A stretch of 63,952 nucleotides of DNA, counting the filler, from Chrysochromulina tobinii (lineage: Eukaryota), in NCBI GenBank assembly GCA_001275005.1. It is 5 parts of 5 records of this genome, joined end to end, with 100 filler letters (N's around TTAATTAATTAA, not from the genome) between each part and the next. Parts side by side here need not be neighbours in the genome. Positions count along the whole stretch, not along the records: positions 14,708 to 27,053 come from JWZX01001430.1; positions 27,154 to 38,911 come from JWZX01001431.1; positions 39,012 to 61,558 come from JWZX01001432.1; 2 more parts are not named here. One strand, given 5' to 3'. The notes under the pieces were generated by a model, which worked only from the letters and a program-made list of their open reading frames with translations, was not told the origin of the DNA and did not search any database. How positions within the stretch are numbered: position 1 is the stretch's first letter; the number at the start of each line of letters is the position of its first letter. This document shows positions 21,301-61,676 of the stretch, piece after piece. The position numbers were made by a program, and so were the translations under genes.

Positions 21301-24300
21301 GCATCCACGGGCCGACCATGTACATGCTGTCGAGCGGGCGGGCGACGGGCATGAAGAAGAAGAGTTCGTTCTGAGCTTTGTAGAGGATCATCCACCACGT
21401 ACAGATGAAGTACAAGAGGAAGAAGAAGACGGTGGCGAAAGCACCCGCAACCTGGAAGACCACATCAGGAAGACCACGCGGTGACACGTTGCCATATTAG
21501 GCGACGAGCCGTCAGGAGCAATTAGGGCAGCGCAATCAGCGCAATCAAGCGCCGTCCTGGGCACCTGGCAGAGGACGCGGTGGTAGTCGCCGAAGTTGCC
21601 CGAGGTGCGCTGCACAAGCACGTACACGTAGATGGCCGAGAGGATGAGGCAGAGCACGATGGCGATGATGAAGAGCATATTGATCGTCTGGTCCGAAGGT
21701 TGCCATATTAGGCAATTAATGTGTGTCAGAGAGAGCCAATCATGGGCACCATCAATGGTAATCAAGGGCAATCAGCGCACCTGGCCCGAGTTCTCGAACT
21801 CAAGGGTAATCAAAGGTAATCAAGGGCAATCAGCGCACTTGGTCCGAGTTCTCGAACTCAAGGGTAATCAAAGGTAATCAAGGGCAATCAGCGCACCTGG
21901 TCCGAGTTCTCGAACTCCATCGTGTATGTCATCCGGAAGAGTGCCGGAGCAATCACGCCAGATCGCTCGAGCTCAGCCTCAAACTCGAGGGGTGACGTGG
22001 CGGCGGCGGGCTTGATGATGTCCGCGTACTCGATCTCGAGCTGGGGAGGTAGCATCTGCCGAGGGAGGTGATCAGAGGCAATCAAGGGAGCTTCGATCTC
22101 GAGCTGGGGAGGAAGCATCTGCCGAGGGAGGTGATCAGAGGTCATCGTAGGCTATCAGAGGCAATCAAGGGAGCTGGGGAGGAAGCATCTGCCGAGGGAG
22201 GCGATCAGAGGTCATCGTAGGCTATCAGAGGCAATCAAGGGAGCTGAGGAGGAAGCATCTGCCGAGGGAGGCGATCAGAGGTCATCGTAGGCTATCAGAG
22301 GCAATCAAGGGAGCTGAGGAGGAAGCATCTGCCGAGGAGGTGATCAGAGAGGCCATCAGCAGCACTCACCTGTGAAGGTGTCCCGTCGTTGCTCTTGACG
22401 ATGATTGTGAGCTTTGCCGAGCGTAGGTAACGCACCTGATGAGGGAGGCAATCCGAGGCTCATTAGTGCTCATCAGAGGAGCTGCCGCCGAGCGTAGGTG
22501 ACGCACCGCCTCGGGAAGCTTGCCCGAGGCTCATTAGTGCTCATCAATGCTCATTAGTGCTCATCAGTGCTCATCAGGTACGCACCGCCTCGGGAAGCTT
22601 GCCCGAGCTCGCACCGCCGCCGCCAGCTGAGACGCCCGAGACGGCGTCGAGCACGTAGAAGCGGCGCGTGAGCTGATCGTCAGTCGTGAGTCCCCCCGGC
22701 TTGTTGACGACCTGTGCGTTGCGCTTGTAGTTGGTCACCCGCACCGGGATCGGGTAGAGGAAGCATGAGCCGCTCGACGCGGCGGAGGTGGTCGAACCAG
22801 GGGGAGGGGGCGACGTGGCGGAGGTGGTTGACGCGCCGCCCTGAGCACAAGCTCGCCCGAGCTCCTCGATGGGTGTGAGCGAGTGCTCCCCGGTTTCGTC
22901 ATAGTAGAGGTACCTGATGAGGGGAGGCAATCAGTGGCTGATGAGGGAGGCAATCCGCGACCCTCAGTGGCCATCAAGATGCCCTCGATTTCGCACACAG
23001 GTGCCATCAAGAGGCGATCAAGAGGGTCATCAGGCACGTACATGTCGTACAGCACCACGTCGGTTCGCTGCGAGAGGAGCCTCAAGGCGGGCACCTGTGG
23101 GGAGAGGACGCCGTGGTGAGCACTTGCATGCTGGGGTGGTATCGTCGTCGGTTCACGAGAGGCGCGCAAGGCGAGCTCAAGGCGAGCTCAAGGCGAGCTC
23201 GCACGCACCTCGCACGCGAGCTCCAAATCGGTACCGACATTGAGGAAGGCGGACGGGTCCGATGCACCGCCAGGGCAGAGCTGAAGCTGATCGGAGAGCT
23301 CCTGCGAGATGATGAGGGAGGCAATCAGGGAGGTAATCAGGGAGGTAATCAGGGAGGTCATCAGAGCTGAAGCTGATCGGAGAGCTCCTGCGAGATGATG
23401 AGGGAGGCAATCAGGGAGGTAATCCTCCTGCGAGATGATGGATGAGGGAGGCAATCAGAGGCTCCAGCAGGCCGAAATACAGGCCGAAATACAGGCCGAG
23501 ATACAGGCCGAGATACAGGCCGAGATACAGGCCGAGATACAGGCCGAGAAACGTGCCCTTCCAGCACTCGACGCGCAATCGATGCGCAATATTTGCGCAA
23601 TATTTGCGCAATCAATGCGTACTCTAGGCGCACTCAAGGCGCACTCAAGGCGCACTCGAGGCGTACCTGCAGGCCGAGGTACGTGCCGTTCAGGCTGTAG
23701 GCTGCCAGCAGAAAGCGCAGCCTCGAGCCGGCCGCCATAGGCAGCGCGAGTGTGAACGGGATGGACGGTGCTGCGCGCGTGATCGCTTGGTCGCCCCGAT
23801 CGTAAAAGAGGCCGGGGAGAAACCGCACCTGTGGGGAGAGAAGGGCGCCGTGGTGAGCACATGCATGCTTGGTCGCCCCGATCGTAGAAGAGGCCGGGGA
23901 GAAACCGCACCTGTGGGGAGAGAAGGGCGCCGTGGTGAGCACATGCATGCTTGGTCGCCCCGATCGTAAAAGAGGCCGGGGAGAAACCGCACCTGCATGC
24001 CAGTGGGGAGGGCCATGAGCATGAGCGCGATCTTAGTAAGGAAGGGCACTTGGGCATGCATGCAATCACGCACCCATTCTTCGTTGCTGTCGACCGAGTT
24101 GAGCGCGTTCGAGGCCTTCAGATACTCGAACGCCTTGCATGCATCATTGTCTTCATCGTAGTTGGCGAGCACGCACCTGTGGGGAGAGCAGGGCGCCGTG
24201 GTGAGCACTTGCATGCATAATTGTCTTCATCGTAGTTGGCGAGCACGCACAGGTTGCCGACGGCCTGGCATGCCCGGGTGCCCGCGAGGAGCGTCTGTCG

Positions 24301-25092
24301 GTTCGGCTCCGGCGCGGCGATCGCACGCCGGCACGCGGCAAAATTGGGCTCGAAGAGTTGCATGATGGCTATCGAATCCGTCACGCTCTCAGAGAGGCTG
24401 GCTCCTTGTCCAGGGAGGATGGCGTCGAAATCCTTCTTGAAGTCGAGGCGGATGCTGTCCGGCCGCGTGCTGCCTTCGGGCTGGTACACGCACGACTCGT
24501 CACGCCCCCAGAGCCCGCCGGTGTGAAGCCGGTTTGTGAAGGCCGGCGACGGGCACGCGCACACGTAGCCTGACGTGGCAGTCGCCTGCATGAGCGCATC
24601 GGAGCAGTCGACGCAGACGCCATTGGAGGGCTGCTGGCCAGTGGGACAACGCCGGCACTCAAAGCTCGGCAGCAGTGCGCCGTTCTCGTCGCGTTCCACG
24701 AGCACTTGGCCCGATCCGGCCGGGCACCCGCACGTTCTGCGCACGAATCCGGGCACGATCTGGCTTGTGTAGATCGTCGAAGTGCCGTTGCACAAGAGGC
24801 AGCTCCGACCATCGCGCGTCGCGGCTTGGTTTGCCGGGCATGCGTTGCACGAACCCGTCGTCGTGTCACCGTCCGAGAGCGCCCTGCTCCCCGAGCACTG
24901 GCATGAAGTGCCGAGCGAGTCGGGCGCGGTATTCGTAGGGCAATCGTAGCAGCGGAGCGTGGAGACGTCGAGATACTGGTTCGGGCCCGTGCATGCCGGG
25001 TAGGAGAAGGCGTCGTACTGGCCGCGAGCCGCAGGCGGCAGCGCGACGAGAAGCAGCAGGCGCAAGTCGAGAGCCTTCATGAGTTCCTTCAT
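18357..25092 (-). CDS. TMEM67: Meckelin (TMEM67/MKS3), ciliary transition-zone protein; 19 exons, 1111 aa
   Basis: Cys-rich N-terminus, ACQAVGNLCVL, HDLFFIDWE, VSVWRTIFVANEWVKLQ, QFVDLLAVTNIS, GFYLHGRSAH, RNIAAKTLLDDRFLL*. One continuous frame results from removing introns 24177-24250, 23829-24073, 23302-23666, 23095-23208, 22914-23041, 22436-22585, 22056-22369, 21688-21896, 21452-21564, 20995-21193, 20869-20939, 20721-20800, 20486-20666, 20096-20284, 19803-19972, 19651-19749, 19237-19452, 18612-19094. Confidence 0.93.
18709..19060. repeat. Intronic 20-bp minisatellite (AGGAGGCCATCAGAGGTAAT), ~17 copies
   Basis: Directly visible tandem array inside the last meckelin intron. Confidence 0.95.
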
Positions 25093-26639
25093 GGGCCTGA
25101 CGAGAGGGTCGAAGCGCGTTGTATCGAGCCTCGGCGGCCTCCGGAACCTCGGAGGGCCCGGTTTTGAGTCACAATGCCGAGGGGCCACCTCCCGGTACTG
25201 AGAAACCAAAAATCACGACCGGGCATGCAAATGTATTACTGTGAACACGTCCGTGATCAATTATGTCAATGTGGTCGATCGGCAGCGTGGCGCGCTGGCT
25301 TTACGGCGGGTTAACACGGCCAAAATTAGGTCAACAACGTGGACATGACGCTGGTGCCCGGGTCTGGTGCATGGCGACCACGCCAAGGCCAACGAGCACG
25401 CTTCTAATCAACATATGAAGCGCTGGCGCTTGCCAAGCTCACTACTGGTGATCGCAACCGCTCACCACGCCCGCGCCCGCATGATCGCGTCTCACAGCTG
25501 GACACACACGCACATTTTTCATAATCTGCACACGAACGTACGACTGCACACATGAGCGTACACACACACGCATGTGCCCTTGAGCCAACCTCTCTTTCCA
25601 TCGCCGAATACCATGCCGAAGACACATTCAACACCTCATCACCATCTGACGCCCTCCTCAACTTAATCGCCTAATCCTCTTCGTCGTCGTCGCTGCTGCT
25701 GCTGCTGCTGCTGTGCGCAGGCGGGCGGGCAACATCATCACTATCGCCATCATCGTCACTCTCGTCTGTCTGACTGTCTCGCTCCGGCCCACGCCGTAGT
25801 CACACTCGGCCGCCTGCCTCCTCCTCATCTTCCTCCGCCTGTTTGTATATTCCAAGTATAGCGATGCCGACTCGTAAAAATTGAAAATATGCGATGGGGA
25901 TGGCCGATGCGCGCGACCCCCGAAGTTCGGGTCTAGTTCGGGTCCCGAACGCGGAACACCGGCGCGGTAGCGCCGCGCCAGGTCGTACGTGGTCGGAGAT
26001 CAGACACGCCTGTCGCCTCGCCTTCACGGCGGAGTCAGACCGGAGAGGAGACGGACCCGCGCCGGACCGACGACATAATTTTGATACATGATCTCTCACA
26101 TGATCTCATGATGCGATGAAATGTGTCCCCGTCGAAGTAGCATGTACGATGAAGAGGAGTTGAGGACCAGCGCAGCCACGCTGGGGCAGTCGTGGTAAAG
26201 GTGGTATACACCGGCGTCGCGCTCACCGTCCACGCCGTGCCGGTGCGGCTCTACGCGAGTACGCGTTCGTGTACGTTCCACGCGCGACATCGGTATCCGG
26301 CATGGTTATCAATCCGGATAATTGTTTCCCCGGCGGGGCGCGCGCGGTCGGGCGGGTGCGCGGGCCGGGCGGCGGCGGTCCGCGCTCCCGCGTCGTGTGA
26401 CACGTGCGCCCGGGGCGTTCACCACCCGACCCCCGGCCGGGAGATAATTCGAGTACACCAGTGAACTATACGGATACAGTACGGTACCGGTCGAGAGTTA
26501 CGAGTAGTGTTACGCGTTAAGCACCCTGAGCATCCGCCCCCACTCCGCACTCGCCACTCGCCCCACGCCCCGCCACCGAACACCGCGACACGGACACTCA
26601 CACAGAGGACACCAGGACTCGCGTCATCGTCAACCTGCA

Positions 26640-27008
26640 CTCTCACGCCAACATCTCCTTCAAATTCTCCCACCGCAATACAGGGGGTCCCACCAATTGG
26701 TTGGGTAGCTTGTTCAGTAACAAATCTCTGTGCATCTAACTGTGCAGCAGCATGGTGGTACAGTCGATGAGCGGCGCTGGCTGTGTGGGTGTTGGCACCA
26801 GTGGCACCCGGCCCGTGGTGACGTACTCGTTGTACAAGGAGGTCGGTGGGTTCTTGTGCTCACTTGTAAAAGGGCAGCCGCAGAGGTGGGACTGTAATCT
26901 TCCTGTACTCGTCAATTTCGGCAGTCCACGTTGCGCACTGGAACGCACTGCAAATGCACAATAATAGGGATTGGGGGAATTTTCAATACAAGAAAAGGGA
27001 ATTTTCAA
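26640..27008 (-). pseudogene. Degraded coding relic of a dispersed repeat (possible TE), second copy at 31953-32050
   Basis: ~95 bp shared between two contigs. Both copies end in a similar peptide (GPPVLRWENLKEMLA* / GPPELRWGNLKGMSA*). In-frame TAG at 26736-26738. Confidence 0.4.
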
Positions 27009-27053
27009 TACAAGATATCATTATATATCATCTTATATCTTGATTATATCATT

Positions 27054-27153
27054 NNNNNNNNNNNNNNNNNNNNNNNNNNNNNNNNNNNNNNNNNNNNTTA
27101 ATTAATTAANNNNNNNNNNNNNNNNNNNNNNNNNNNNNNNNNNNNNNNNNNNN
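27054..27153. other. Artificial contig linker
   Basis: 44 N + TTAATTAATTAA + 44 N. Confidence 0.98.
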
Positions 27154-27580
27154 CGCCCGGCTGCCGACCCGCCCGCGAGGAATGAGCCCGCGGAGCGTGG
27201 TCGCGCCTGTGAGTTATTAGTGCCATTTCTTCTACAGACTCTCTCTTCTCTCCTTCTCCTTCCTTTCCCTTCTTCTTCTTTTTCTTTTATTTCTTCAACC
27301 GTTAGAAAAACGCCGCCGACTTCCGGAAGAGTGCCCGCGCAGTTTGGTAACCGCCGATTACGGTTCTCATTCGCGATCCCATGGAACTTGAAATTTGTTC
27401 TCACGACAGATCCCCCACTTGCCACCGTTTAAAGCGCGCAGTGGTTCATGCGAACAGCCGTACAGCCCACTGCGCTGCCCAGAGGCCGTCCGCTCCCACG
27501 AGTCACGATGCGAAACGCGGAGAGCTCTCTGGGCGCCATGCTGGGCGCCGGGCACACGCACGCAGCCGCCGCTGGCTCGC

Positions 27581-28762
27581 TTAGTACCCGGGGACGCGGA
27601 TTTCGTCGGGGCTCATGTCGAGAATGCGCAGCCCGCGCCTGTCGGCCACCGCCTGCGCCGAAGAGCAGCGCTGGAGGGCATTGACTAGGGCGTACGCGAC
27701 GGTCGTCGGGTTGCGAGATCCGTGAATCTTAACGGAGACGTCCGAGATCCCAAAGGCGCTCAGCAGCTTCCACACGACCCAGCTGCATCGCGTGCCGCTG
27801 CCCGGGCGGCGCAGCCTCATCACGAGCTTCGTGCGCGCGAACCGCTCGTCGAAGGCATGGAACATAGTGCGCTGATCGAAGCGCTCGATGTGCACGAGGT
27901 TCTTGCGAGCGGCGACTGTCGCCTTGTACAGGGCGTTGCCCGCGACAACGTCCTTGCCCATCCCGATGCCCGCGGTCCCCTGCCCGTTGCCCACCACCAC
28001 CAGCGTCGAGTACGAGCCGCGCTTCGTCTCCGACATCGATTTGGAGACTCGCCGGTTGTTGAGCATGTACCCGAAATACTGTCCATCGGGCAGCCCACCG
28101 GACTCACGGAGCTTGAGAGAGTCGTGGAAGGAGCGCGCGATTTGGAGGTTGCGCGCGAGGTCCTCCTTGAACAGCTCCTCCGAGTTCAGCCCCTCGGCGA
28201 AGTCTTCGAGCGGGGGCATCGACGGCGGCGGCAGCAGACCCTCAGGCCCAAGGTCCTCGAGCAACTCAAGCAGCTCCGCGCGCCGCGCCGGCTCGACATC
28301 CGGCTGCGCGAGGAGCGCGGCGCGGGCGCGCTTGGCCCGCTCAGCACCCGAGCGGCTGCCCGATTCGGGCACCGCCGAGCCCGTGCGCAGCGCCGTCTCG
28401 CCGTCAAGCCAGAGGTACTCGTCGCCGTCGCCCTCGGCGAGGGTGAGCGCGTCGTCGGCGAGGAAGTACTCGTCGTCGTCGAGGTCGACTCCGCGCACCT
28501 CGGACTTCGCCTTCATGCCCTTCTGCTTGGAGCCCATGCCTATCCTAATACTGTCCTTTTTTCTGTCCTGGTCAAAGCCGACGTCCTGCCAAAACTCCTG
28601 CTGCGAGAGTCCGCCCCACTTGGCCCAGAAGTTGCGCTTGCGCCGCTTGCCCTCGGGCGTCTCGCTCGGTGGCACGTAGCAAAGCGTCCGCGCGCGCGGC
28701 GCGGCGACGCAGCGCAGCGCCGGAGGCGTCGCGCGCAGGGAGCCGAGTAAGCTCCTTCGCAT
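27581..28762 (-). CDS. MRPS5: Organellar (probably mitochondrial) ribosomal protein uS5
   Basis: YSTLVVVGNGQGTAGIGMGK, ARKNLVHIERFDQRTMFH, AFGISDVSVKIHGSRNP; Arg-rich presequence-like N-terminus MRRSLLGSLRATPPALR. Confidence 0.85.
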   Translation of the reverse strand: MRRSLLGSLRATPPALRCVAAPRARTLCYVPPSETPEGKRRKRNFWAKWGGLSQQEFWQDVGFDQDRKKDSIRIGMGSKQKGMKAKSEVRGVDLDDDEYFLADDALTLAEGDGDEYLWLDGETALRTGSAVPESGSRSGAERAKRARAALLAQPDVEPARRAELLELLEDLGPEGLLPPPSMPPLEDFAEGLNSEELFKEDLARNLQIARSFHDSLKLRESGGLPDGQYFGYMLNNRRVSKSMSETKRGSYSTLVVVGNGQGTAGIGMGKDVVAGNALYKATVAARKNLVHIERFDQRTMFHAFDERFARTKLVMRLRRPGSGTRCSWVVWKLLSAFGISDVSVKIHGSRNPTTVAYALVNALQRCSSAQAVADRRGLRILDMSPDEIRVPGY

Positions 28763-30334: not shown

Positions 30335-30369
<35 letters not shown>

Positions 30370-31603
30370 CCAGCTCCAGCGCCACCAGCAACAGCAGCGG
30401 CCAGAGGAGCGACGCTTATGCGGCGGCCAACGGCTCGGCCGACGGCCTACGGCTCGGCACACGTACATGTAACGCTCTGCTCGCGGCGCTCGTCGCCTCG
30501 GGAGAGGTGAGCTCGGCGACCCATGTGCTGCTGAGCGACGTGATTGCCTCTGATGACCTCGAATGACCTCTGATGGCCTCCCTCATCAGGTGAGCTCGGC
30601 GACCCATGTGCTGCGCGCCATGGAGGAGGGTGCCGCGCACCCGCCGAATGCGTACTCGTACTGCATCATGATGAGCGCGTATGGCGCGCGCAACCAGCTC
30701 GGGAACGCCGAACGCTTGTGGAAGCTGCTCTGGCAGCAGGGGTGGGTGGACACCGTCGTTCTCAACTGTTGGCTCCAGGCGTGCATTACCAACGGCGAGG
30801 TACAGCGTGCGCTCCTCGCGCCGAGCCTCTGGGCATCTGCATGCACGTGCTCACGATGGCGCTCGCTCCCCTCTCCCCGCAGGTGCCGCGTGCGCTCCAG
30901 GCGTTCCAAACGGCCAAAAAGGAACTTCCCAGCCTGCAGCTGGACAAGGTGACCTTCGGGACCCTCATCAACGGCCAACTGAGCGACGTGATTGCCTCTA
31001 ATGACCTCTGATGCCCCCCCTCATCAGGTGACCTTCGGGACCCTCATCAACGGCCTCACCCGACCCTACGGCGCGAACAACAATGTGGCGAGCGCGCGAC
31101 GCGCCCTCCAGCTCTGGGCCGAGATGCGCCTGCTCGGACTCGCGCCCGACGCGCGGATCGTCACGCCGCTCTTCGACGCATGCACCCGGCACGTGGGTGT
31201 CGAGACAGTGCTCAAGCTGCGCGTCGAGCTCGTGCGCATGGGCTGGAATGTCGCCGCACTCCGCCCCCACGACCAGGTGCTCATCGCCGCGCTACCTTCA
31301 CTCAAAGAGGTGCTTCGCGATCAGCCCAAGTGGGAGGCTCTCGGCGTGCGTCTCCCTCCCACGCTGGGCTCCGAACAGGCGCAGCTCAGCCTCACCATGC
31401 CCGCGCTCCCGACCGCCGTCGTCCCTCCCGCGGCGACGTCGGTCCCACGGGCCGGCCGTGCGGAGTTTGAGCACGACGACGGCACGGAGGTGCCGTGCGT
31501 CGTTGAGGATGACGAGTGCGCCGCGCAACCCGCGAGCGCAGGCGAGGAGATCTGGGAGCGCCATGCGTGGAATAGCATGGACGGCTCCTGGAGGTACATA
31601 TAA
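28947..31603 (+). CDS. Pentatricopeptide repeat (PPR) protein with signal peptide, 803 aa; introns 30507-30589, 30800-30882, 30949-31027
   Basis: PPR motifs TFCILIKGYGRAG, TLNALLDAYARNG, TYNTLIKGYS, PNEVTYSTLIHAC, VTFGTLINGL; removing the three phase-0 introns restores the frame. Confidence 0.9.
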
Positions 31604-32284
31604 AATCTCTGTTCCATCTGTGTCCCTTCCTTTTCGATCGGTTCCTCTACGTCTACCTTTGTGCTTCTTGTAATCTCGGACTCGAGTCGACCAGTCGTGC
31701 GCGACTCCACTTCTCCAGACGGACTGCACAGAGACCGGGATGTCGGATCCACGAACGTGCGCAATGCCCGCAATGGTCGGATCAAGGCCACGTGTCATAC
31801 AGGGCCTAAATCACGGCCGACTGGACTCCTTAGGCTAATGCTGGTGTGCACTCGAGTCCACGACAAGCAGCGAGGAGAACAAGCAGGTTTCCATGCCCGG
31901 GTCCCGTCGTGTCACCAGGTGCCGTTCCATGTCCCATGTTGCATGCCGCCTTACTCTCACGCCGACATCCCCTTCAAATTCCCCCACCGCAATTCAGGGG
32001 GTCCTGCCAATGTGTAGGTAGCTTGGTAAGTTACAAGTTCTCTCTGTGCACTCGAGTACTGATTGCCGGCCGTCACACGAGCGATAACTAATAGTAAAGT
32101 ACAGCCGGGATCCCCTGTGAGCGCCTCCCACGCACGCCTTTTCGGGGCTTGTGGGTGTGTGTCTGGCCGAGAGGGCCCTGAAACGAACGAACGAACAGCC
32201 GGGATCCCTCGGGAACTCATTCACACACTCTTCGACCCACACGCGGCGAGAAACTCGCGCGTCGGCCTAAAAGAAGAAGACGCC

Positions 32285-35200
32285 ATGGCCACCACCAAGA
32301 CCGAAGAAGGCGTCCACGTGCTGGGTTCGGGCAATACCTTTGAGCGCCCGTTGACGGTCAACGAGCCTTGTGCCTTCTCCTTTGCCTTCTCTGTGGACGG
32401 CAACCTACCGCTCGAGTTCTCGGTGATGCTCCGCGCCAAGGGCAAGGACATGCAGCTGCTGCCAGCAAGTAGATATGCGGAGCTCGACGGAGAGGTGCTT
32501 CTTCCGGGTGCCGGCACGTGCATCGCACGGTGGCACAACCCGTCCGGCTGGGTGTTTAATGCGCCGGCGGCCACGCTGTACTTCAAGCTGCAGGTGCTCA
32601 AGCAGACCCCGATGCCCGCACTCAAGAGCCCGGCCGCCGCGCCGGCGCCCCCTGCGCCCGCCGAGCCGGCCAGCGCCGAGCCGGTCGAGCCGCCGAGCCC
32701 GGAGCCCCCCTCGAGCGCCATGCTCGCCGCCATCGACGCGGCCGTCGAGGTGGCCAAGGCGAAGGCCGCCGGGGCAGCTAATGCCGCGGCGGCTGAGGCT
32801 GGGGCGGCCGAAGCGGTGAGGGCGAAGGCCGCCGCGGCGGCGCAAGCTGAGGAGGCCGCTGCCGCGGCGGCGCAAGCTGAGGAGGCCGCTGCCGCGGCTG
32901 CGGAGCAGGCAGCCGCGGCGGAGGCTGCCAAGGCGGAGGCGGAGGCGGAGGCGGCGGCCATGGAGGCTGCGAAGGCGGAAATGGAAGCGCAGGCGGCGGA
33001 GGCGGCGGCCGCGGCGAGCGCCGCCCTGAGCGCCGCCATCGAGGCAGCCATCGAGGCAGAGGCGGCGGAGAACCCCGGGGAAGCGCCCCCACCGTGGGTT
33101 CCGTCAACTTCGTCGGTTGCATCATGGGTGACCCACGAAGGGCTGCTTCAGAAGCGCACGAGCGCGAGCGTGCCGGCCGGGGGCATACACGAGGTGTGAA
33201 GTGAAGCATGGGCTGTGAAGCGCACACAGTTGCTCCGCCTGATCGAGCTCTGATGTGCTCTGAGTGCGACTGATGGCCGCTGAGTACATCGTAATTGTGG
33301 CTCCGCCCCTGAGCTCAAGCTGTGATGACCCCTAATGACCTCTGATGACCCTAATGACCTCTGATGACCCCCGATGACCCCTGATGACCTCGAACCGCCT
33401 CCAATGACCCCTGATGACCTCTGATGACCCCTGATGGCCTCCGATGGCCTCTGATGGCCCCTGATGACCTCAAACCGTCTCCAATGGCCTCAGGTGAAGC
33501 TGACTGTGCCGAGTGGCGGCGCCCTCCTGCTCACCACGGCGCCCGCTCCCTTCCCCACAGGTGAAGCTGACTGTGCCCAGTGGCGGCGCCCTCTTCCTCT
33601 CGTGCACGCTCGGACCGAACAAGCCGGCGTCCTTCTCCGCGTACATGGCCCCGCTCACGACGGCGCTCCACGAGCCGCCCGCGACGGCGCGTGGGGAGAC
33701 GTACGCGGTGGTGCGCGCGGCGCCGTCGGAGATTGACAAGCTCATTGGGTACCCTCTGCCAGCGGCCGCCGAGCATGCTCTCTCTGCGAGGCACGCGAAC
33801 GCGACGCTCCTCGGCAAGGCGGCGAGAGACGCTGCGATCGAGCTGGAGTGGGCCTACGAAGTGAATACCAACGGCCAGCGGGCCTTCACAGAGGCCATCG
33901 AGCTGACCGATACGGCGCTCGTGCGCCTCGAGATCGACGGTGCGTGCGAGCTGACGCTGTCTTGGGAACATGTGTCCACGACGTGGATCTTTCGCGATAG
34001 TGAGACGCCGTTGGCGTGGAGCGCGACGCTGCTGCGCCTCGTGCCTGACATGGGCGCTGAGCTGGGCGCCGGCGGCACACCCACCGCCCCCTCAGCCACC
34101 ACCACCACCTCCTCCTCCTCCTCCTCCTCCTCCTCCTCCTCCTCGCCGCCACCGCCGCCGCTTCCGCAACCCGCGTCGCCAACAACGTTGTCACCGCAGC
34201 CGCCGCTGCCTCCACAACTAGCCACCGGCACCACCGGCGTCACACGCCCACACTGGTCGCCGCACCGGTCGTCGCCGCTCGCCCGTCCCGCCCAATACGA
34301 CGCGCCCGATACGGCGCGCGAGCTCGCGAGCTCGCCGTCGGCGTCCACGCCGCCCGCCAACCCGGCGCCTGCTCAACACGACGCGCTCGATCAGGCACCC
34401 ACGCCGCCGTCGGCGAGCTCGCCGCCGCCGCCGCCGCCCACGACGGCGGGCGCCCAATACGACGCCCTCATGCAAAAGGCGATGGACGAAGCTCTCGCTA
34501 AGGCTCTAGCAGGCGCGACTTTGACGAAGCCGGCGTTCGTCAACGTCGCGCCTGTGCTGGCGGAGGCGCCCGCCTCGGCGCCCGCCTCGGCCGCTCATCA
34601 CGGCGCCACGGCGCCCATCACGCCCGCCCATCACGCCGCCCACCACGCCCTCACGTGCCGCCCCTGCGCCCGACACGGCGCCATCTCCAGGAACGGTTAC
34701 CTCCGTCGAGAGGACCACCGGCGCCGTGGCGGGCGCATCCGTCGAGGATAGGGGCGCTTCCCTCGTCGCCTCTCTGAGGGTCGATGCCGAGTCTGCTGTA
34801 GCTGACGACGGCGAGGGCGAGGCGCCCCGCACCGGCTTTCGAACGCGGATGCCGCCGCCCTCGCCCTCGCCCTCGAACGAGAATGTCCGTGACATGCCCT
34901 CCAGTTTGCGCCTGCCTTTGGCGCAGGAGGACGAGGACGAGGACGAGGACGAGGAGGACGACGACGAGGACGAGGAGGACGACGAGGATCTTTCGCAGAT
35001 CACCCGCCACCCCTCCCTCGGCGCCGACGGCGGCGACGGCAGCCTGCGCTACTCGACGTCTGCCGAGTGGGCATTGATTGAGCAAGGGAAGCTGAATGGG
35101 GTGCCCGCCACGACGCTCGACGCTCGAGAGCCCACCGAGGCGCCCAACACGACGCGGTCGCTGCCCGGCCCGGCGCCCCCCCCTGACCCTGAGGAGGAGG

Positions 35201-35637
35201 CGAGGGAGGCGGAGGCGGAGGCGCAGCGCGCCCAGGCATGGGCAAGCATGGGCGTCCCCGTCATCTTCGACTGCGCATCGGCCAGATTAGGCACTTGCTC
35301 GTCGGCGGTCACCGCCGTCACCGCCGCTGCCGCCCTCGCCGCCACCGGTGTCGCAGGTGGCGGCGCTCACGACGGCGCTCCGGAGTACGTGGGCGAGGGG
35401 CCGCTGCCCACCTCGGCGCTCAAGCTGCTCGACGAGCTCAATCTGGCCAAGTACAAGAAGAAGTTTCGTCACGAGGACCTGACGGAGGTGAGCATGTTCC
35501 TCGCGATGCTCGAGGTCGGAGCACACGGGGCCGCCGACCTGCGCGCCATCCTTCGCGAAGTCGGCATGTCGCTCGGCCATCGAGAGAAGGTGCTACTTGC
35601 CCTCACGACGCGCCCGGCCCCCACCACGGTCCACTGA
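32285..35637 (+). CDS. GOLD-domain protein with low-complexity linkers and C-terminal SAM domain; intron 33194-33560; apparent frameshift between 34510 and 34749
   Basis: GOLD-like LEFSV..DGEVLLPGAGTCIARWHNPSGW..LYFKLQV and a second unit GACELTLSWEHVSTTW. SAM-like LLDELNLAKYKKKFRHEDL..LREVGMSLGHREKVL lies in a different frame. Confidence 0.65.
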
Positions 35638-35813
35638 GCGCTCGTCACGACGCGGTGGCCCCCAAAGAACGAATCTCTGAGCGCTCGTCACGACGCGTTG
35701 GCCCCCAAAGAACGAATCTCTGAGCGCTCGTCACGACGCGGTGGCCCCCAAAGAACGAATCTCTGAGCGCTCGTCACGACGCGGTGGCCCCCAAAGAACG
35801 AATCTCTGAGCGC
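35635..35813. repeat. 43-bp tandem repeat, 4 copies plus a partial, starting at the stop codon of the upstream gene
   Basis: TGAGCGCTCGTCACGACGCGGTGGCCCCCAAAGAACGAATCTC at 35635, 35678, 35721, 35764; no spacers. Confidence 0.95.
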
Positions 35814-36260
35814 GGTGCGGCGCGGCGGCGGCGGCGGCAGGCGGCAGGCGGAGGGCGCAGAGGGCTTCGTCTCGGCTCCCGTTGCTGACGAAACTGACGA
35901 AACTGACGTCGCGTCGGTCGGAGCCGCAGAGGGCTCCGTCTCGCGCGCGAGTAGCTGGGAGCGCACTTGACCTGTGGGGACTTTTTCGTGGGAGAATCTC
36001 GGAGTCGGGGCTGGTCCGGGCGCGTTTTTCAACTTTCAAGCGTTCTCGCTCTACACGACTTGTACACGCGCTTCATGAAACGGGAGTCGGGTCCAAGTTA
36101 CGAACCGACCAAAAACGGTGAAACTTGCGGCCAATCCTCGACTCACCCGCGGCGCGGCCGGCACGCGACGAAGCTCCGCGACCGTGCTGACAACCGTCTT
36201 GACGGCTGGCTCGAGAGCGCGACCGTTGCCTCGCGTGAAAGGCCTTTAAGCGCGCGAAAG

Positions 36261-38911
36261 ATGTACGGCCAGAGTGGAGTCAAGGACATCATACGCCGCC
36301 GGAGCCAAGGGAATGAGGAAGACACCATGCCGTTGCTCGGTGGGAACGCCTCACCAAGCGAATTCTTTCGGCCAGGTGGCAACGCGTCCGTCGCAACGCC
36401 TCAGAAGTTGCAGAAAGTGCAAACCTTGCCGCAAACCTCAGAGGCAAGCCGCGACCAAGACTTGGAAGAGACACGATCAATTGGTGCTTCGTCTCACCAT
36501 GCTGATGAGCCCGAGGAGCTCTCAAAGGATGAGGTGCAGATGATCAAGGCGAGGACGATGTTTCAGATGGTCGAGGACATCCAGAGTTCCGGAGGCAGCG
36601 CCAAAAAGCTACTCTTCCTGACGAATTCGCAGGCGGAGTACTTGAGCAGCAGCCAGCAGACGTTGGTGAAGATGCTTGATGCGCTCGAGCTTCCCAAGCC
36701 CAAGCTCGTGATCAATATACTCATGTCTCAGGGCTTCCGCGCAAACACCGATATCCAGGGAGATCGGCCGTTTGCTTGTGAAAAACAAGAAGCTGGCCTC
36801 GTCAACCACCGCCCTGCATTCCTATCGTTGGAAGAGGAGCGGGCTGCCGAAGGGAAGATCGAGCGATTCATGGCCGATGTGTTGCTGCCTCTCGCTGCTC
36901 AAACCAATGCCATCGTGCTTTGCAGTGCGGACCCTTCAAGCTGTGTCCTCAGCGCGGCGCTGACGCGCGTGTTCGGCTTGCTTCGGGCGAAGTGGGGAGC
37001 CAAACCGCCCTTCACGCTCATATCCGTCTTCGGCTCCGTCCACAACTTATACCGCAACTCTGATTTGAATGCGTCGTGGCGCGAGATGCGCAAGCTGTCC
37101 AGATCATGGCGCCAGCGCGATCGTATGCTCACAGAGATGGTCGCGCGGCAGTACACCGGACCTGACGGAGAGATCACCTTTAGGGATCAAGATCTTGACC
37201 CGAATGCCACGGTCCTCCTTGTGGTCGATGGCATCAATACGAAGAAGATGAAGTGTGCCGACAAGACCAGCTACAACAAACTCGTTACCGAGCTTGTTCG
37301 TCACCTGGCGGGCACGTTGCCCTCGCTGAGTATGAAGACTGGCAACTCCGACAAGGGTACTCTATCCGAAGCCTTCTCTTCGAGCCTCGCGATGGCCATG
37401 GATTCGGCTTGCTCTGGAACTCCGCTCCTACTTCTGGACGCGCGAACGCGACCATTTCTGGTTGCGTCGGATCGTGCGAGTCTGATTGAAGCGGCAAAGG
37501 AAGCCTGCTCCGCGATCGGGGACTCTTTGTTTCAGGCAGGCCTCTGCGAAACTTTCGATACCTGCACCGTCTCGTTTTTCCACAAGGTCCTGTTCGAAGA
37601 TGGTATGAAGCTTATCCAGACAACAAACGTCAGAGATGCTGCGGATACCTTGCTTAAGCGTCTTAAGCCAGCGATGGTTCCGCTTCATGAGGCGATCTCC
37701 TTTGCCAAGGAAGGGCTTTCCACGCAAGCTAGGAACAATGAGCAGCGCTTCAAGCCACCGTCTGCACATCAGATTCATGAGGTGTGCGCGTCGCATCTTT
37801 TCTCTCCCCGCTACTCTCTCATGCGCCCTGCGCCTCATGCGCCCTGCGCTCGCCGCTGCGCATCCGATGGCGCTTCAATATGCTCACGACACTTACCTTG
37901 CGGCTGCTTGGATGCCACAGGTGGCCGTATGGATCGCAGACAAGTACTTTCAAGACGCGTGGCAGCTTCTCCCCGATCGTGAGACTCGCGAGCAGACGGG
38001 CCAGACCTATCAAGACCTTTACCGGGATCGCAGCACAGCAATGGCGGCCATCACTTCTACCATCTTGAGCTCTCCCAACGTTCACCACGTCAATTTAGAT
38101 GATGAGGACGGTTCGAAAAAGCTGGTTGACCAGCTCGTCCGTCTCGACCGCCTCCCGCGGGAAACGCCGATCGAGGGCTTGCTTCTGATGCAAGAGGCGT
38201 GGTGCGCATACGATGTGGCGATGCACCTCGCCGATCGCTACAAGGGCATCAGCAAGTTGATCTTCTTCTTACAGCTGCTTCTCATCTTTGCAGTCATGGT
38301 GGCGACCGCTTTGGCAGCACTATCCTGCCCTTGGGCTGGCGAAGGCGAAGCTCACCGGCAGCTGGGCTCAATGGAGCTGGCAGCGGCGACTTCAACGAGC
38401 TTGAACCTCCTGCACAGTATGACGTCCATGCCCCGCGCGAGTTACGTCAACATCGCCTTCATCCTCTCCGCGTTCGCCTCGGTTCTAATTTCAGTGGATT
38501 CCGTCATCAATGCAAAGCTGCGCTGGCGGCAGTTGCGCAACGGTGCCGGGACTCTGGAATCTTACTTATGGTGCTACCGCACTCGAGTAGGCTCCTTTGA
38601 GCTCGACCAGAATTCAGACTCACGCTCCTCCGAACTCGCCCTTTGCAATGCACTCATCCGCTGGCGTCAGGAGATCGTCTCTGGCGGTGACCTCCAGGTG
38701 AGTGGATTCGGCCAGGCATACCCAGAATACATTTACAAGCACGCGCAGAACACGGGCATTCTCCCTGATGGCGAAGACGACCACCACTCACCCGTGCAGC
38801 CGCAAAAGTACGTCGACTTGCGCATCATACCGTCGATTGCGTTTTACCAGGATCGGATCCCCAAGTATGCGATGGTGCGCTACGTGCTTCGCATGATGCT
38901 CCTCACGTCCA
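36261..38911 (+). CDS. TRPM-type SLOG (LSDAT-like) domain + SLATT/DUF4231-like transmembrane domains; intron 37782-37920; 3'-truncated by the gap
   Basis: LELPKPKLVINI and VLLPLAAQTNAIVL resemble the TRPM MHR1/2 SLOG domain. Two TM helices followed by RWRQLRNGAGTLESYLWCYRTRVG, then YVDLRIIPSIAFYQ, resemble tandem SLATT units. Confidence 0.65.
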
Positions 38912-45707: not shown

Positions 45708-46224
45708 GCGCGGGCCAATCTTACCGTCCTACCGTCCTACTTCCTACTGGCGATCGCGCAATCGGGCGGCGGTGGAGGGGTCTTGTGGTTCGGGCGCGCG
45801 TGTTGGCGGATGCGGGTGCTTCCAAAAGTACCGGTAACAATCGACACAAGTCTCCCACTCCGAACACCTTATCGGGGCGGACCCACCCCCCCGCCTCCCT
45901 CGTCCCTGTCGGGTTGGTTTCACACCAGACACATAGCGAGGCGCTCCCCTCTCGCCTGTGGCGTCTGAGCGACAAGCCAGGAGATCTCACCTCCTTAGCG
46001 GCGCCCAGCTTGCTGGCCTCCTGCCAGTAGTCACCGGGCGCGCTCGCATGAGGCCATGAGCGCCATAGATGAGAATCGCAGTACTTTGTCGACCCGTTTG
46101 AACTTTTCACACATGGTCGAAAGACGCGCGACAATAGAGACCACGTAATGGCAAATAAACGTGATCGTGAGCGCGGCTCGAGAGTTCGTCTAAACGCGCC
46201 CGGCGCGACGCGTGTGTCGGCAAC

Positions 46225-49200
46225 ATGGCGTCAGCCACGGCGGCTTCGGCTGCTGGTCCTGTGACATCAGCAGCTGCTGCTGCACTGCTCAGCAATGATG
46301 GCCCGGCCTGGCAGGCGGCCGCTGCCGTGCTCATCGGCCAAGTGCTCACGGGCGACCCTCGGTACAAGTCGGTGGCCGCGATTGGCGATATCCGGCGTGC
46401 GGCAGCCTCGAGCGCAACAGCCCGCAGTTTGCTTGTCGGCAGCACTGCGTTAGTGACGGGTCTCGCTGGTGTGCTGCGGCCGCTTACCGATCGGTCATGC
46501 TACCAGCTGAGCCATCAGCTGCCATCAGCTGAGACCATGGCTGCCGCCGAGGTTGCTGAAGCTGTCGTGTGGCTCTTTGGCTGGCTGCTGCCCGTTCCGC
46601 AGAACGCGGCGGTGCTGCACGTGCGCGGCGACGCCGCGCTGCTGCTACGGATGTCGCGCCAGGGCGCCACTCGCGGGCTGCGCCATGCGGCCCTCGTCGC
46701 GTACACGATCCTTCACGTCGCCGACGGCTCGGCGACGGACGTCGCCTCAGCCATCGAGGCTCTCATCGCGTCGACGAGAGAGGGCATCGCGCTCGTGAGG
46801 GCGCGCGTGGCGGGCGCCGACACAAATGATGCGTCGTGGCGTGTTGTCAGCTGCCTGAGCGCCTTGTGGCACCTGCTCGGAGGTCGGAGCATGCCCCATC
46901 CCGACGGCATCAGGCGGGATGTGAGCGCGCCTAGTTCGGTGTTGGCGATTTCGTCACTCCGGCGCGCGGCGCGCGAGGCCTTTGAGCGGGCCGATGGGCT
47001 GCTGCGCCTCAAGGAGCTCATCGGTGCGCTCGACGCCGCATTCATTGGCGACGCCATCGATGCGTCTTCCGCTTCCCCATCCGCCGCGCAGGCCACCGCG
47101 CAGGCCGCGGCGCATTCACAAGCGCATTCACAAGCGCATTCACAAGCGCAGGCACAAGCGCAGGCACAAGCGCAGGCACAAGCGCAGGCACAAGCGCAGG
47201 CGGAGGCGCTCTGGCTCTTGCGTGCGGCGCTGCGAGTGCTCGGCGCGTCGGTGCGCTCGGAGCCCGAGCTGGCAGCGCGCTCGTGGGCGTTCTTGGGCGG
47301 CACCGAGGGGGTCGTCGCCCTCTTGGGCGGCTGCGGCTTGCTGCACAGTGGGCACGCGATCTCCGTGCTCGAGGAGATCCTCGAGCTCACCTCGGGATCG
47401 GAGGCGCAGCTCTGGGCAGCGGCGGCGGTTGTGCTGCGCCTGCTGCCGCGGCTGCTTCGTGACGTGGCGGCGGCAGCCTCACTCCTCGAGGCAGTCGAAC
47501 GACGAGCGCTGAGCAGCGAGGCTACTGCGGTGCAGCTCTCCCGCGCTGGCTTGCTCTGCGCGGCCGTCCACCTCCTACGTCAGTTGTGGAAGGGCATCGA
47601 TGCGTCGTCTTGGGCGGATCGCGTGCACGATGCAGCAGCGGACGACGAGTCGGCTGCCAACGAGGAGCCGCGCCCGAGTGCAGCCGTGCCCGAGCACGTC
47701 GCGGCCGGTGCAGCGTCGCGTCCAGTTTCGTCAGCTTCGGCGGGCTCGCCACTGCTGCGCACGCTGCTGCGCTTGACGGTGCGCCTGGCGCGTGCGTGGA
47801 GCTCGCCGCAGGAGGTGCGGCTGCTGCTGCAGGCGGCGGCGGGCGCCGACGACGTCGCAGCTGGGGCTGACGGAGCGGCCAGCCCGTCGTCAGTGCGCTG
47901 GCTCGCCCTGCTCGTCGCGGCGACCCGTCCCGTAGGCCCATCCCTCCCCTACATGCACCTCTCGCCGCCCGACGAGAGGGCTTCCAAACATGGATTGGTG
48001 GCCGAGACGGCGCTCCTGAAGGTGGGGATGCTCGAGCGTGCGTGGCCACCCGCGGCGGGCTATAGCGCGGGCGCGTGGGTGCGTCGGCCCCCGCTCCCAT
48101 CCGGCGCTCAAGGTGGCGCTCAAGGTGGCGGCTCGTATGTGGACGAGCCGCCTTTTGCGCTCTTCGCGTTTGAGACGGCCGATGGGAGGAGCCGTGTCGT
48201 CTGTGAACTACATGCTGCGGCAGGTGGGAGTGCAAGCCTGACGCTGGTGACGGGCTCGAGCGCGAAGACGATGCGTAAGGGCGTCGCGCTGCCGTTGGTG
48301 CCCGGCAACTGGCATCACGTGTGCCTCGTGCATGAGCGGCGTCGACCTCTCAACGCGTCCCCGCTCGTTGTCTACGTCGACGGCGTCGCGCACTTCCGCG
48401 GTACCTTTCAGTTCCCTCCGTTTGACTGCTGCCACTCCGTCGACGCCAAGGTGGGCTATGTCAACGCGGATGAGCTCGGCGGCGGCGGCGGCGGCGGCGG
48501 CGACGGCGAGGGCGGCGGCGAGGGCGGCGGCGAGGGCGGCGGCGGCGGTGAGGGGGGCAGAGGCGGCGCACGCGCCCTGGGATGGCACCTCGGCCCCCTC
48601 TTCGTCGCGGAGGTGTTGCTGAGCGACGCGCAGGTGCGTGAGGCGTGTGCGATGGGGTGCTCGCCGCCCTGGGTGCTTCCACAGCTCGGTGAAACGCAGA
48701 TCGACGAGCTGCGAGTCGAGATCATGACGTGCTGGTTGCAGTCGGCGATGGCCACGTCAGCGGCGGCCATCGAAGCGGCCGTGAGCTCGAGTGGTGGCGG
48801 CACAGTAGAGAGCCACGAGCTTCGGATTCCGCCCGCCAAGATCCTGATGCTGCTCAACGGCCACTTTGACGAAACGCCATTTGACCAGAGGGAGCCGGCG
48901 CGCGTGCGCCCGCGCAGCCTGCCGCAGTCCCTCGCGGCGGCGGGTGGCCCCGCAGCGCTCTTGATGGTGGTCCGCCACGCCAACGACACACGGAGTCTGG
49001 TGCTCGCCCTGCGTCTCGTGGGCCACTTCCTCACGCTGCATCCGCTCAACGTGCGCGCGCCTGATGACGGACGAGCATGTTCTGATGATGACCTCTGACG
49101 ACCTCTGATATGACGCCCTTGATTGCCTCCCTCATCAGTTGCGCCTGATGACGGACGAGCATGCGGACTTTGGGTTGCGCTTCCTCTTACGCGCCAAAGC

Positions 49201-52200
49201 GCAGCCCTTGCTCGCCGAGGCGCTCTGCGACGCGTTGCTCGAGCTCTGCTGCAAGCAGCACCCACGCACCGCCGCGGCCGCGCGCGCGTTTGACGAAGCC
49301 CTTGAGGGCCTTGCGGCGTCCGCGGGCGCGCTGGCTGACGAAACGGACGAGCTCGCTGAGCACCTGCTCGCCGTGCACATCTCGCCCACATCTCGCGAGC
49401 ATCAGCCGGTACTCGCCAACCGCTCACTGCTCAAGGTGCAGCCGCTCGATAGCGCGCTCTGATGACCTCTGATGACCTCCGATGACGCCATGGATTGCCT
49501 CCCTCATCAGGTGCTGCTGCTCGATAGCGCGCTCTGGGCGCGCGCGACGCCCAAGGCGCAGCGCCACTGGCTGCAGCGGCTGCATGGGCTGCTGTCGGAG
49601 GACGAGGTGGGCACCTCCAATGCCAGCTACCTTGTGGATGCCGGCATGCTCGACAGCATGATGACGCTGCTGGCTTCGGGTCGGCTGCTCGCGGGTGGAT
49701 GCCATCTGCTGGCTGCGCGGCTCGTGCTGCGTACGTGGCACTCAGTCCAGTTCTCGATGGAGGTGACGCGGCGAGTGCATGACTTCCTCGCGGCCACCGC
49801 CCGCCCGCAGCATGCGGACGTGCAGCTGCTCTGCGTGCGCATGCTCGCGCGCATGGTGGAGCACGCGAGCACTTCGCTCGGGGAGGTGGTTTCGTCACGC
49901 GCCGCCGCGAGCGCTGCCACGCGCGCCGTGGTGGCCACGCCGGCGGCAGCCGGCGAGCCGGCGCCGCCGGCCGAGTCTGCGGGCGTACACGCGGGCGCGA
50001 GGGCGGTGCTGGCGGTACTCCAGCCGCCGCTGCTCCTCTCGTTTCTGCAGCCCGAGCACGGCGGACACAACAAGGTTCTCGTCGCGGCGGTCATGCGCTT
50101 GATCGTCAATCTGCTGCTGCTCTCGCAACGGTACCCGGAGCATGTCACCTTTGCGAAGCAGATGGGCGAGTCCCGAGGGTTTGAGAAGCTCTTCGGCGTT
50201 CTCCCGTTGCATGCGGGGGTACCGGACGTGTACCTATCCCTCCTCGCGCTCGCCACCAGCCAGACGCTCGACACGGTGGAGAACAAGGCGCCGCCAGAGA
50301 CGGCGGAGCAGCTGGCCGAGGCCTGTGCGCTGCTCCAGCTCACCTGATGACCTCTGATGACCTCGGATGGCCTCTGATGACCTCAGATGACCTCAGATGA
50401 CCTCTGATGACATCTGATGGCCTCTGATGGCCTCTGATGGCCTCTGATGACATCTGATGGCCTCTGATGGCCTCTGATGACCTCTGATGACCTCTGATGA
50501 CATCTGATGGCCTCTGATGGCCTCTGATGACCTCTGATGACCTCTGATGGCCTCCCTCATCAGGTGCGCTGCTCCTCGCCACGCCCTCCGCCTCGCCCTC
50601 GACGCCCCGACGCCCCAGCATCTCGTCGCCGCTCGGCACGGCGCTCGGCTTGCCCCAGGGCGCTCTCGCGCGCGCCGCCGCCGAGGCAGCGGCGCGGCTG
50701 CAGCAGCGTGCGAGCGGCAGCAGCAGCAGCAGCAGCGGCGCAGCCAGTGGCACGCCAAGCGCTCGGGACGTCGCCGAGGATGGCGCGGCTCCGGCGATTG
50801 AGTGGATCCCGATCAGCCTCGGATTGATAGCCGTCATGTGCCGTGAAGCCCTTCGCACCAAGCGCGCCCCTCCGAGCACGAGCGCCGCATCGAGCGGCTC
50901 GACGAGGGACGAGGGCGCCGTACCGAGCGCCGCCGACGGCTTTGAACTCGTGGGTGCCGAGGCGACGTCCACGGAGCTCACCGTGAGCAGCAGCAGCAGC
51001 AGCAGCAGCAGCCGCGAGGGTGAGGCAGCTGGCACACCAACGGTCGACCGCGCCGTCCCGGTCGACCGCGGCGGCGGCGGCGGCGGCGGCAGCAGCAGCG
51101 GCAGCACGGCCGCTGGGGTGTCGAGCGCACACATGGAACGCGAGCAGGCGGCGGCGAGCGCGTTGCATCTCTTTGTGGCGGTGCTGCCCTCGCTCCGAAC
51201 ACTCGTGATGACCTCTGATGACTCCTGATGACCTCTAATGACGCCCTTGATTGCCTCCCTCATCAGGTGTTGCCCTCGCTCCGAACACTCGTGATGACGG
51301 CGTCCATCTTCGAAGGGGTTCTCCTATCTCCCGCCTCCGAGCTCCTAGGCCGCCTGTGTGCCTCGCTCGGTGCTGTGTGGCTGAGCACCTCCGCCTCGGG
51401 CGCCGCCGCCTCGTACGCTGTCACCGCCGTTCCCTCGTCCGCGCATTCGGGCAGCGCGCGCGCGCTGCCGAGCGCCGTGCCGAGCGCCACGACCGCCCCG
51501 ACCGACCAAGGTGGCAGCGCCGTACTGGGCAGCTCGACACCGCGCCCATCGACGGACGTGGTCAAGGCAACGGTCGAAGGGGACGCGGCGCTGGATGCCC
51601 TCGTGGAGATGCTCAGTACGGCGCTGCTCGATGTGCCGTCGACGCTCGTCTCAAGCGCCGGCCAGACGAGCCTCGATCTGCTCATGGATCCGCTCCCCTC
51701 CCTCGCTCATTCACGGATCGCCTTTGACGTGTGGCTGCGCTTCCGCTGTCTGCTGATTCGAAAGCTCTTCAGTGCGCTGCACCAGGGGCTGATGAGTCGT
51801 TCGGGACCCTTGACGGAGGCGCATGCAAAGGCGCTTGCGCTCCTCTACCGGCGTGTCCTCCGGTTGCAAGCGATCGTGATCCACCCCGTGGACGCGGCGA
51901 CGCCATCTCCCTCGAGCTCCTCGATATCTTCTTCGATCTCATCGAGCACCCCCGACGCTGCCACGTCGAGCACAAGAGACGTCACGTCCCCGGCTGGCTC
52001 TGCTGACGCGCCGCCTCCACCGCCACCAGTGCCCCCAGCACACTCAGCACCCCCGCCGCCCCTGCCGCCTCCACCGACGGCGCCACGGGCACCGCAGGCC
52101 CCAGATCAGGCCTCAGAACAGGCCACTGATCTGCTGCCGCACGCGGAGATGCTCGCCGTCGTCCTCATCCTGCTCGAGCGCGGTGTGGGCGATGAGCGGC

Positions 52201-61658: not shown

Positions 61659-61676
61659 GCGCCCGAGCCGCCGCCC

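What the first reader, a model, noticed from the sequence alone, without database searches (positions are those of the whole stretch)
24134..51298. Duplicated exon copies end at microhomology with the cassette
Seen: the switch from exon copy to cassette falls where the two share bases. GCATGCAAG (9 nt) at 24208-24216 matches the family A start; TGATGAC (7 nt) at 51206-51212; CTCTG at 49457-49461 and in intron 23302-23666; GATTG in the donor copies of 20995-21193. Duplication length therefore seems set by where the exon resembles the cassette. Known: such junctions typify polymerase-theta-mediated end joining, template switching and 5' junctions of target-primed reverse transcription, not DDE transposase TSDs. 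Inference: the mechanism is repair- or RT-based rather than cut-and-paste.
Basis: partly seen in the sequence, partly recalled or inferred. Interest (0 to 1): 0.72.

Follow-up and report, generated by a model that had tools for sequence, protein, structure and literature searches.

The report
Introns seeded by neighbouring introns
In this freshwater alga, many short introns consist of a 20-40-base copy of the exon they interrupt joined to a piece of another intron, which in the traceable cases sits nearby on the same stretch of DNA, so new introns likely arise when DNA repair borrows a neighbouring intron as a patch, with no sign of a jumping gene.

Summary
The five matches are at the stated places. 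Three are junctions of true insertion introns; two are local tandem duplications across existing splice sites. The alga is a Chrysochromulina. The meckelin introns are spliced in RNA. In 134 metagenome loci plus the window, 139 of 192 family-A introns begin with a copy of the downstream exon (null 4 of 384). Microhomology at the copy-cassette junction exceeds chance (at least 5 nt in 14 of 115, against 5-7 expected), but over half show no direct join, and an intron-length window of about 65-95 nt also shapes copy length. The larger result is the template. Cassettes resemble introns of the same locus far more than others, daughters carry pieces of the mother's own exon copy, all 18 youngest cassettes differ, one allele pair shows the empty site, and some copies are inverted or lack the acceptor. 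Best reading: local template-switch repair copies part of a neighbouring intron into a duplicated site, and selection keeps what splices. An RNA template is not excluded. No enzyme was identified. The scan noted a similar cluster in another protist (e1-9786159).

The parts
24177..24250 (-). Family-A intron of the meckelin gene: GT donor and 43-nt copy of the downstream exon, then cassette with predicted branch site and CCCCACAG acceptor
   Evidence: RNA joint with 31 letters fitting both sides, 3 of 4 runs; sequence
24208..24216 (-). Microhomology GCATGCAAG shared by exon copy and cassette (11 nt contiguous against the library)
24134..24176 (-). Exon stretch that was duplicated
23829..24073 (-). 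Compound intron: an older intron plus two tandem 82-nt units of exon copy and A cassette at its acceptor
   Evidence: RNA joint skips 245 nt in 3 of 4 runs
23302..23666 (-). Intron with a local tandem duplication across its own acceptor (internal exon copy 23362-23387 ending in CTCTG)
   Evidence: RNA joint in 4 of 4 runs
20995..21193 (-). Intron with two internal copies of its own donor region starting at GATTG (21139-21150, 21084-21095)
   Evidence: RNA joint in 4 of 4 runs
18360..25090 (-). Host gene meckelin/TMEM67, intron-rich
   Evidence: Pfam PF09773 on two exons; RNA contigs
30507..30589 (+). Family-B intron with 25-nt exon copy; shares the private lead-in CTGAGCGACGTGATTGCCTCT with the next one
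   Evidence: not covered by RNA
30949..31027 (+). Family-B intron with 28-nt exon copy, sister of 30507-30589
   Evidence: not covered by RNA
33494..33560 (+). Family-A intron truncated inside the core, with 33-nt exon copy
   Evidence: seen in the near-identical locus L024; not covered by RNA
49051..49138 (+). Family-B intron of the BEACH gene with exon copy and no clear overlap; shares ATGACGCCCTTGATTG with 51181-51266
   Evidence: reading-frame test
49436..49510 (+). Family-B intron, 26-nt exon copy ending in CTCTG
   Evidence: reading-frame test
50325..50563 (+). Family-B intron with expanded 10-nt repeats and 12-nt exon copy
   Evidence: reading-frame test
51181..51266 (+). Family-B intron, 32-nt exon copy ending in TGATGAC (51206-51212)
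   Evidence: reading-frame test
46225..56540 (+). Host BEACH-domain gene, 3275 aa after removal of four B introns
15696..15786 (+). A-cassette piece without the CCCCACAG end between two 23-nt repeats
16582..16653 (-). Family-A intron with 29-nt exon copy in the next gene
   Evidence: splicing not among the joints shown
19237..19305 (-). Family-A unit with 29-nt exon copy in meckelin

Best explanation
These are spliceosomal introns made of a duplicated exon stretch plus part of another intron, and they likely arise by local template-switch repair: synthesis at a break copies the exon, switches (often at a few shared bases) onto a nearby intron, copies part of it, and returns 20-40 nt upstream. 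The duplicate supplies the GT donor and the borrowed piece supplies branch site and AG, so splicing restores the original message exactly. Selection would keep events that start at a usable GT and give about 65-95 nt. Each new intron can then serve as a template, so the family would spread in chains within genes with no master element. Shown: anatomy, splicing, microhomology excess, local kinship, one empty allele. Inferred: DNA rather than RNA as template, breaks as trigger, selection as the filter. Unknown: the enzyme.
For: Exon copy in 139 of 192 A introns, null 4 of 384. Same-locus kinship among culture-series loci: 7 of 128 within-locus pairs against 23 of 6772 between; permutation 10 pairs against 0.97 (maximum 7 in 5000); B 9 of 158 against 35 of 4486. 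Daughters carry the mother's exon-copy bases and private variants: L063 (5-nt overlap), L039 (5-nt overlap), L052; L051/L111 across contigs. Empty site: L079 has an 81-nt intron absent from L009, with a perfect 33-nt copy and 50 nt identical to the intron about 450 nt downstream in L009. No master: 18 of 18 youngest and 110 of 115 cassettes distinct. Free 3' ends: acceptor-less copy after a stop codon (L007/L028), return inside the cassette (L002, L019, L054), mirror geometry in which the cassette gives the donor (L073, L046). An inverted internal piece in L122 shares a private base with a sense copy about 340 nt away. Microhomology excess.
Against: Only about 6-11% of within-locus pairs are clearly related, so most mothers are unseen, and some kin lie on other contigs (L051/L111, L063/L069). 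Related local pairs share no more exon-start sequence than random in A (2.2 against 2.3 nt, n=12) and only slightly more in B (2.8 against 2.1, p=0.046, n=12), which a DNA template with homology-guided return would favour. 343 of 349 cassette pieces near an acceptor are in sense, also expected of RNA routes. Kinship does not fall with distance from 0.1 to 6 kb. GCATGCA is kept in 93% although chain copying should erode it. There is one empty site and one clear inverted copy; the mother was not seen in the L079 strain itself, and that pair could be a precise loss.
Confidence: 0.6

Rival explanations
1. Same local chains, but RNA-templated: the gene's own pre-mRNA or excised intron is reverse transcribed or used as a repair template near its locus (template switching during reverse transcription, partial reverse splicing, RNA-templated repair).
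For: Same-locus bias flat over 0.1-6 kb; 98% sense; most copies end at AG; no excess homology at the acceptor junction in A.
Against: Inverted internal piece in L122, mirror geometry and copies ending inside the cassette do not start at an intron's 3' end. Sense and AG bias are also explained by selection and by the search pattern. No RT family was found in 10 window ORFs.
Confidence: 0.22
2. The microhomology is secondary: longer insertions were later shortened by slippage deletions between exon copy and cassette, and local kinship comes from gene conversion between neighbouring cassettes.
For: Local tandem duplications at microhomology are common here (23302-23666, 20995-21193; copy-number differences).
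Against: Young introns already show it (10 of 27 direct joins have 5 nt or more, best-match library). Daughters hold the mother's exon-copy bases. The L079 intron has a perfect copy and a 50-nt identical neighbour.
Confidence: 0.08
3. SINE-like non-LTR retroelements with a few master copies insert by target-primed reverse transcription, giving variable duplications and 5' microhomology.
For: Geometry (duplication, variable 5' end, usual 3' end) matches; a few longer lead-ins recur on unlinked contigs.
Against: All 18 youngest cassettes differ; strong local kinship; no tail; free 3' ends; duplications mostly 19-41 nt.
Confidence: 0.07
4. Non-autonomous DDE transposon introners.
For: B cassettes can pair CTGATGA with TCATCAG.
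Against: Duplication 12-55 nt, not fixed; 5' ends vary; folding no better than shuffles in the three window introns (z 0.66, 0.01, -0.62).
Confidence: 0.03

Closest known systems
[quoted passage not shown]
   Same: Donor within 5 kb, microhomology 2-9 nt, filler, sometimes a target duplication, no poly(A).
   Different: There the target duplication is occasional (4-21 nt), templates are arbitrary and intron creation is not the reported outcome; here a duplication of typically 19-41 nt is the rule and supplies the donor.
Intron gain at staggered breaks in Daphnia pulex (PMC4202315; passages)
   Same: New introns flanked by a repeat of the adjacent exon; presence-absence alleles; later internal duplications.
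   Different: Repeats are 4-12 bp and the source of most inserts is stated as unknown; here inserts are related and traceable to neighbouring introns.
Introners (PMC9860276 passages and table rows; PMC12130899 parts 1-2 of 7 and table rows)
   Same: Repeated intron sequence in unrelated genes; one splice site carried, one co-opted from the duplication; reported in marine Chrysochromulina MAGs.
   Different: Introners are near-identical end to end with 3-9 bp duplications; the Chrysochromulina example has a 4-bp duplication and carries the 5' site. C. tobinii is listed with 0 families. Here half the intron is locus-specific and there is no master.
Same-gene intron duplications in fungi and near-identical intron pairs in Oikopleura (PMC3609843, PMC3879977; passages)
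   Same: Related introns inside one gene.
   Different: Rare (82 members in 24 fungi; four pairs in Oikopleura), whole introns, no long exon copy described in the passages read.
Intron from tandem exon duplication (Hellsten 2011) and RT template switching (Roy and Irimia 2009), both seen only as cited in PMC3609843
   Same: Duplicated exon sequence gives splice sites; template switching was proposed as a route.
   Different: Here duplication is coupled to capture of a ready branch-acceptor module from another intron, at large scale.

Membership tests
Introner (TE-derived intron family) | Homologous introns in unrelated genes | tested here: met
   About 190 distinct A and 97 B acceptors
Introner (TE-derived intron family) | Near-identical end to end, from one or few masters | tested here: not met
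   5' part is a copy of the host exon; 18 of 18 youngest cassettes distinct
DDE cut-and-paste element | Fixed short duplication and terminal inverted repeats | tested here: not met
   Copies 12-55 nt, variable 5' ends
Non-LTR retroelement / SINE | Fixed 3' end with tail or repeat | tested here: not met
   Copies end inside the cassette or are internal pieces
Non-LTR retroelement / SINE | Variable duplication and 5' microhomology | tested here: met
Non-LTR retroelement / SINE | Autonomous RT partner sharing the 3' end | not testable with these tools
   No whole genome held; no RT family in 10 window ORFs
Repair-mediated proximal duplication (SDSA / alt-EJ templated insertion) | Template close to the insertion | tested here: met
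   for the traceable minority
Repair-mediated proximal duplication (SDSA / alt-EJ templated insertion) | Microhomology or filler at junctions, both ends free, either orientation | tested here: met
   inverted case n=1
Polymerase-theta-mediated end joining | Dependence on POLQ | not testable with these tools
   No genome and no genetics
Reverse-splicing intron transposition | Whole intron inserted seamlessly without duplication | tested here: not met
   Partial introns with long duplications
Spliceosomal intron | Removed at GT-AG from RNA | tested here: met
   Meckelin introns in RNA contigs; BEACH introns by reading frame only

The most novel reading that the evidence does not exclude
A self-propagating, transposon-free intron factory: ordinary break repair uses existing introns as patches, every new intron becomes the next template, and this has built a large share of a genome's introns while staying invisible to introner surveys.
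Probability: 0.5. Interest if true: 0.9.

Novelty: new variant of a known kind. Interest (0 to 1): 0.78.

Why it matters
Where new introns come from is a long-standing question, and mass gain is currently credited to transposons (PMC12130899). Here hundreds of introns carry their own birth record: target, template and junction can each be read, and alleles with and without an intron exist. That makes a repair-based route countable and testable in a cultured alga. It also explains why such introns escape similarity searches, since half of each is locus-specific, and predicts easy precise loss through the flanking repeats.

Tried and rejected
No whole genome or source records could be searched, so POLQ, Ku/Lig4 and RT genes were not checked. 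No cassette match in viral contigs or phages; no Rfam family in 15000-26000. No RT or transposase Pfam family in 10 candidate window ORFs. Assembly artefact rejected: L024 repeats window 30528-36475 at 99.9%, copies differ from exons by substitutions, and RNA skips them. Special folding of the introns rejected. The idea that mismatches near the donor improve it was not supported (mismatch rate lowest there). The best-match library statistic (20 of 115 at 5 nt or more) is inflated when an intron's own daughter is in the library, so the three-supporter statistic is the headline. Automatic geometry classes were noisy; about a dozen free-end cases of 160 flanked cores were judged by eye. A general scan for duplication-plus-spacer units (551 found, 160 neither A nor B, output cut) did not settle whether non-intron templates are used. 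Ten literature searches found no description of this architecture; subscription papers, SI PDFs and GitHub consensus files of the introner papers, and files 13-14 of PMC12130899, were not seen, and Vaughn and Bennetzen 2014 was not held.
Full report
Setting. The window is GC-rich eukaryotic DNA. Its S5 protein falls in a 90% cluster with a Chrysochromulina parva protein, so the organism is a Chrysochromulina. The finding spans a meckelin gene (18360-25090, minus) and a BEACH gene (46225-56540, plus). Two intron 3' modules recur: A (GCATGCA-N-GTGCTCACCACGGCGC, pyrimidine tract, CCCCACAG) and B (10-nt repeats such as TGATGACCTC, then GCCTCCCTCATCAG). CTCAC and CTGAT resemble branch-site consensus (recalled, not tested).

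Splicing. RNA contigs of four runs show 12 GT-AG joints in meckelin among the 15 joints listed (29 more were not shown), including 24177-24250, 23302-23666 and 20995-21193. The BEACH introns were tested by reading frame: removing 49051-49138, 49436-49510, 50325-50563 and 51181-51266 gives 3275 aa, and keeping any one truncates it.

The five cited junctions. All are present. Three end the exon copy in insertion introns. The CTCTG in 23302-23666 and the GATTG copies in 20995-21193 belong to tandem duplications across a site that already existed; they repeat that intron's own private ends.

Larger sample. The pattern demanded the core and the acceptor, so it over-counts intact 3' ends. Of 192 distinct A acceptors with enough flank, 139 have an upstream copy of the next exon starting at GT or GC; swapped exons give 4 of 384. 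I dropped 11 tandem or long cases, leaving 128 (median copy 31 nt, median intron 78 nt), and 115 with an intact core for junction tests. Of 97 B acceptors, 25 were clean insertions.

Microhomology. Real and simulated blunt joins went through one pipeline. With templates supported by three other introns, 50 of 115 A introns join directly; 14 have 5 nt or more (4.6-6.6 expected) and 7 have 7 nt or more (1.1-2.1 expected), p<=0.003. In B, 14 of 25 join directly and 4 have 5 nt or more (0.3-0.5 expected). So the excess is real. It does not fix the length: most direct joins have 2-4 nt, only 26 of 63 sit at the best match available, and in 42 young introns copy and remainder compensate (rho -0.43; variance 80 against 169 when shuffled, 0 of 5000 as low). 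A length window is a second determinant, likely through selection.

The template is a neighbour. Upstream of GCATGCA, introns of one locus resemble each other far more than others: among 118 culture-series introns 7 of 128 within-locus pairs score 8 or more against 23 of 6772 between, and label permutation gives 10 pairs against 0.97. B shows the same (9 of 158 against 35 of 4486). In L063 a daughter 1.7 kb away switches at a 5-nt overlap into the mother's exon-copy region and carries two of its private bases; L039 does likewise at 2.5 kb. In the window, 30507-30589 and 30949-31027 share a private lead-in, as do 49051-49138 and 51181-51266. L010 holds a clan in one helicase-like gene. L079 has an 81-nt intron missing from the L009 allele: a perfect 33-nt copy plus 50 nt identical to the intron about 450 nt downstream in L009, with a 2-nt overlap. 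That cassette occurs in only 2 of 115 introns. All 18 introns with perfect copies have different cassettes, against a master element.

Ends are not fixed. After a stop codon, L007/L028 carry a cassette that returns to the duplicate before any acceptor; window 15696-15786 is similar. L002 and L019 take both splice sites from the duplicate; L073 and L046 show the mirror form, where the borrowed piece gives the donor and the duplicated upstream exon gives AG. L122 holds an inverted internal piece sharing a private base with a sense copy about 340 nt away. These fit a two-switch templated patch better than priming from an RNA 3' end.

Against. Most mothers are unseen; kinship is flat over 0.1-6 kb; 343 of 349 pieces are sense; exon-start sharing between kin is not raised in A and barely in B; the GCATGCA palindrome persists in 93% without explanation; the empty site and the inversion are single cases. 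An RNA template therefore remains the main rival.

Mechanism. Shown: duplication, capture, microhomology excess, local kinship, splicing. Inferred: a staggered break or stalled strand, two template switches on nearby DNA, and selection for GT start and length. Not tested: enzyme.

Comparison. It works like repair-mediated proximal duplication (PMC2671141) and like staggered-break intron gain in Daphnia (PMC4202315, repeats 4-12 bp, sources mostly unknown). It fails the introner tests of end-to-end identity and fixed short duplication; C. tobinii is listed with 0 families, and neither cassette motif was found in the stored, cut supplement of PMC9860276. Same-gene intron copies are known but rare. 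Ten searches found no account of this combination, within the limits given. I rate it a new variant of known repair-based intron gain, with an even chance of being a distinct self-propagating route.

Noticed in passing
L043, L046, L068, L073, L095: A lead-in that starts with a GT donor and fuses B-type repeats to the A core, with a private CACAGCG variant, recurs on unlinked contigs; it may be a more mobile subfamily or the origin of the commonest A lead-in.
   Followed up: partly
L010:1160-1200 (-): An A-core copy lies in frame inside apparent coding sequence with no acceptor.
   Followed up: no
family A positions -8 to -2: The palindromic GCATGCA is kept in 93% of copies while conservation drops sharply just upstream; role unknown.
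   Followed up: partly
L029:4089, L030:2122, L073:4199-4936, L099:183, L117:379: Other units have the same duplication-plus-spacer build with different short repeats resembling branch sites, so the process may not be limited to A and B.
   Followed up: partly
window 21688-21896 and 22436-22579 (-): More introns with tandem copies across their donors; RNA uses the outermost sites.
   Followed up: partly
window 4320-4420 and 61670-63952: Related sequence, the second a 763-aa open frame without a Pfam match; 4700-5200 looked by eye like a decayed retroelement piece, but Pfam found nothing.
   Followed up: partly
window 57500-60000 (-): Gene built of repeated leucine-rich-like units with duplicated exon-intron blocks.
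   Followed up: no
L006, L063, L069, L110: The A cassette forms minisatellites of 39-56 nt units inside introns.
   Followed up: no
L015/L044, L094/L128, L054/L116, L007/L028: Strains differ in the copy number of intron repeat units.
   Followed up: partly
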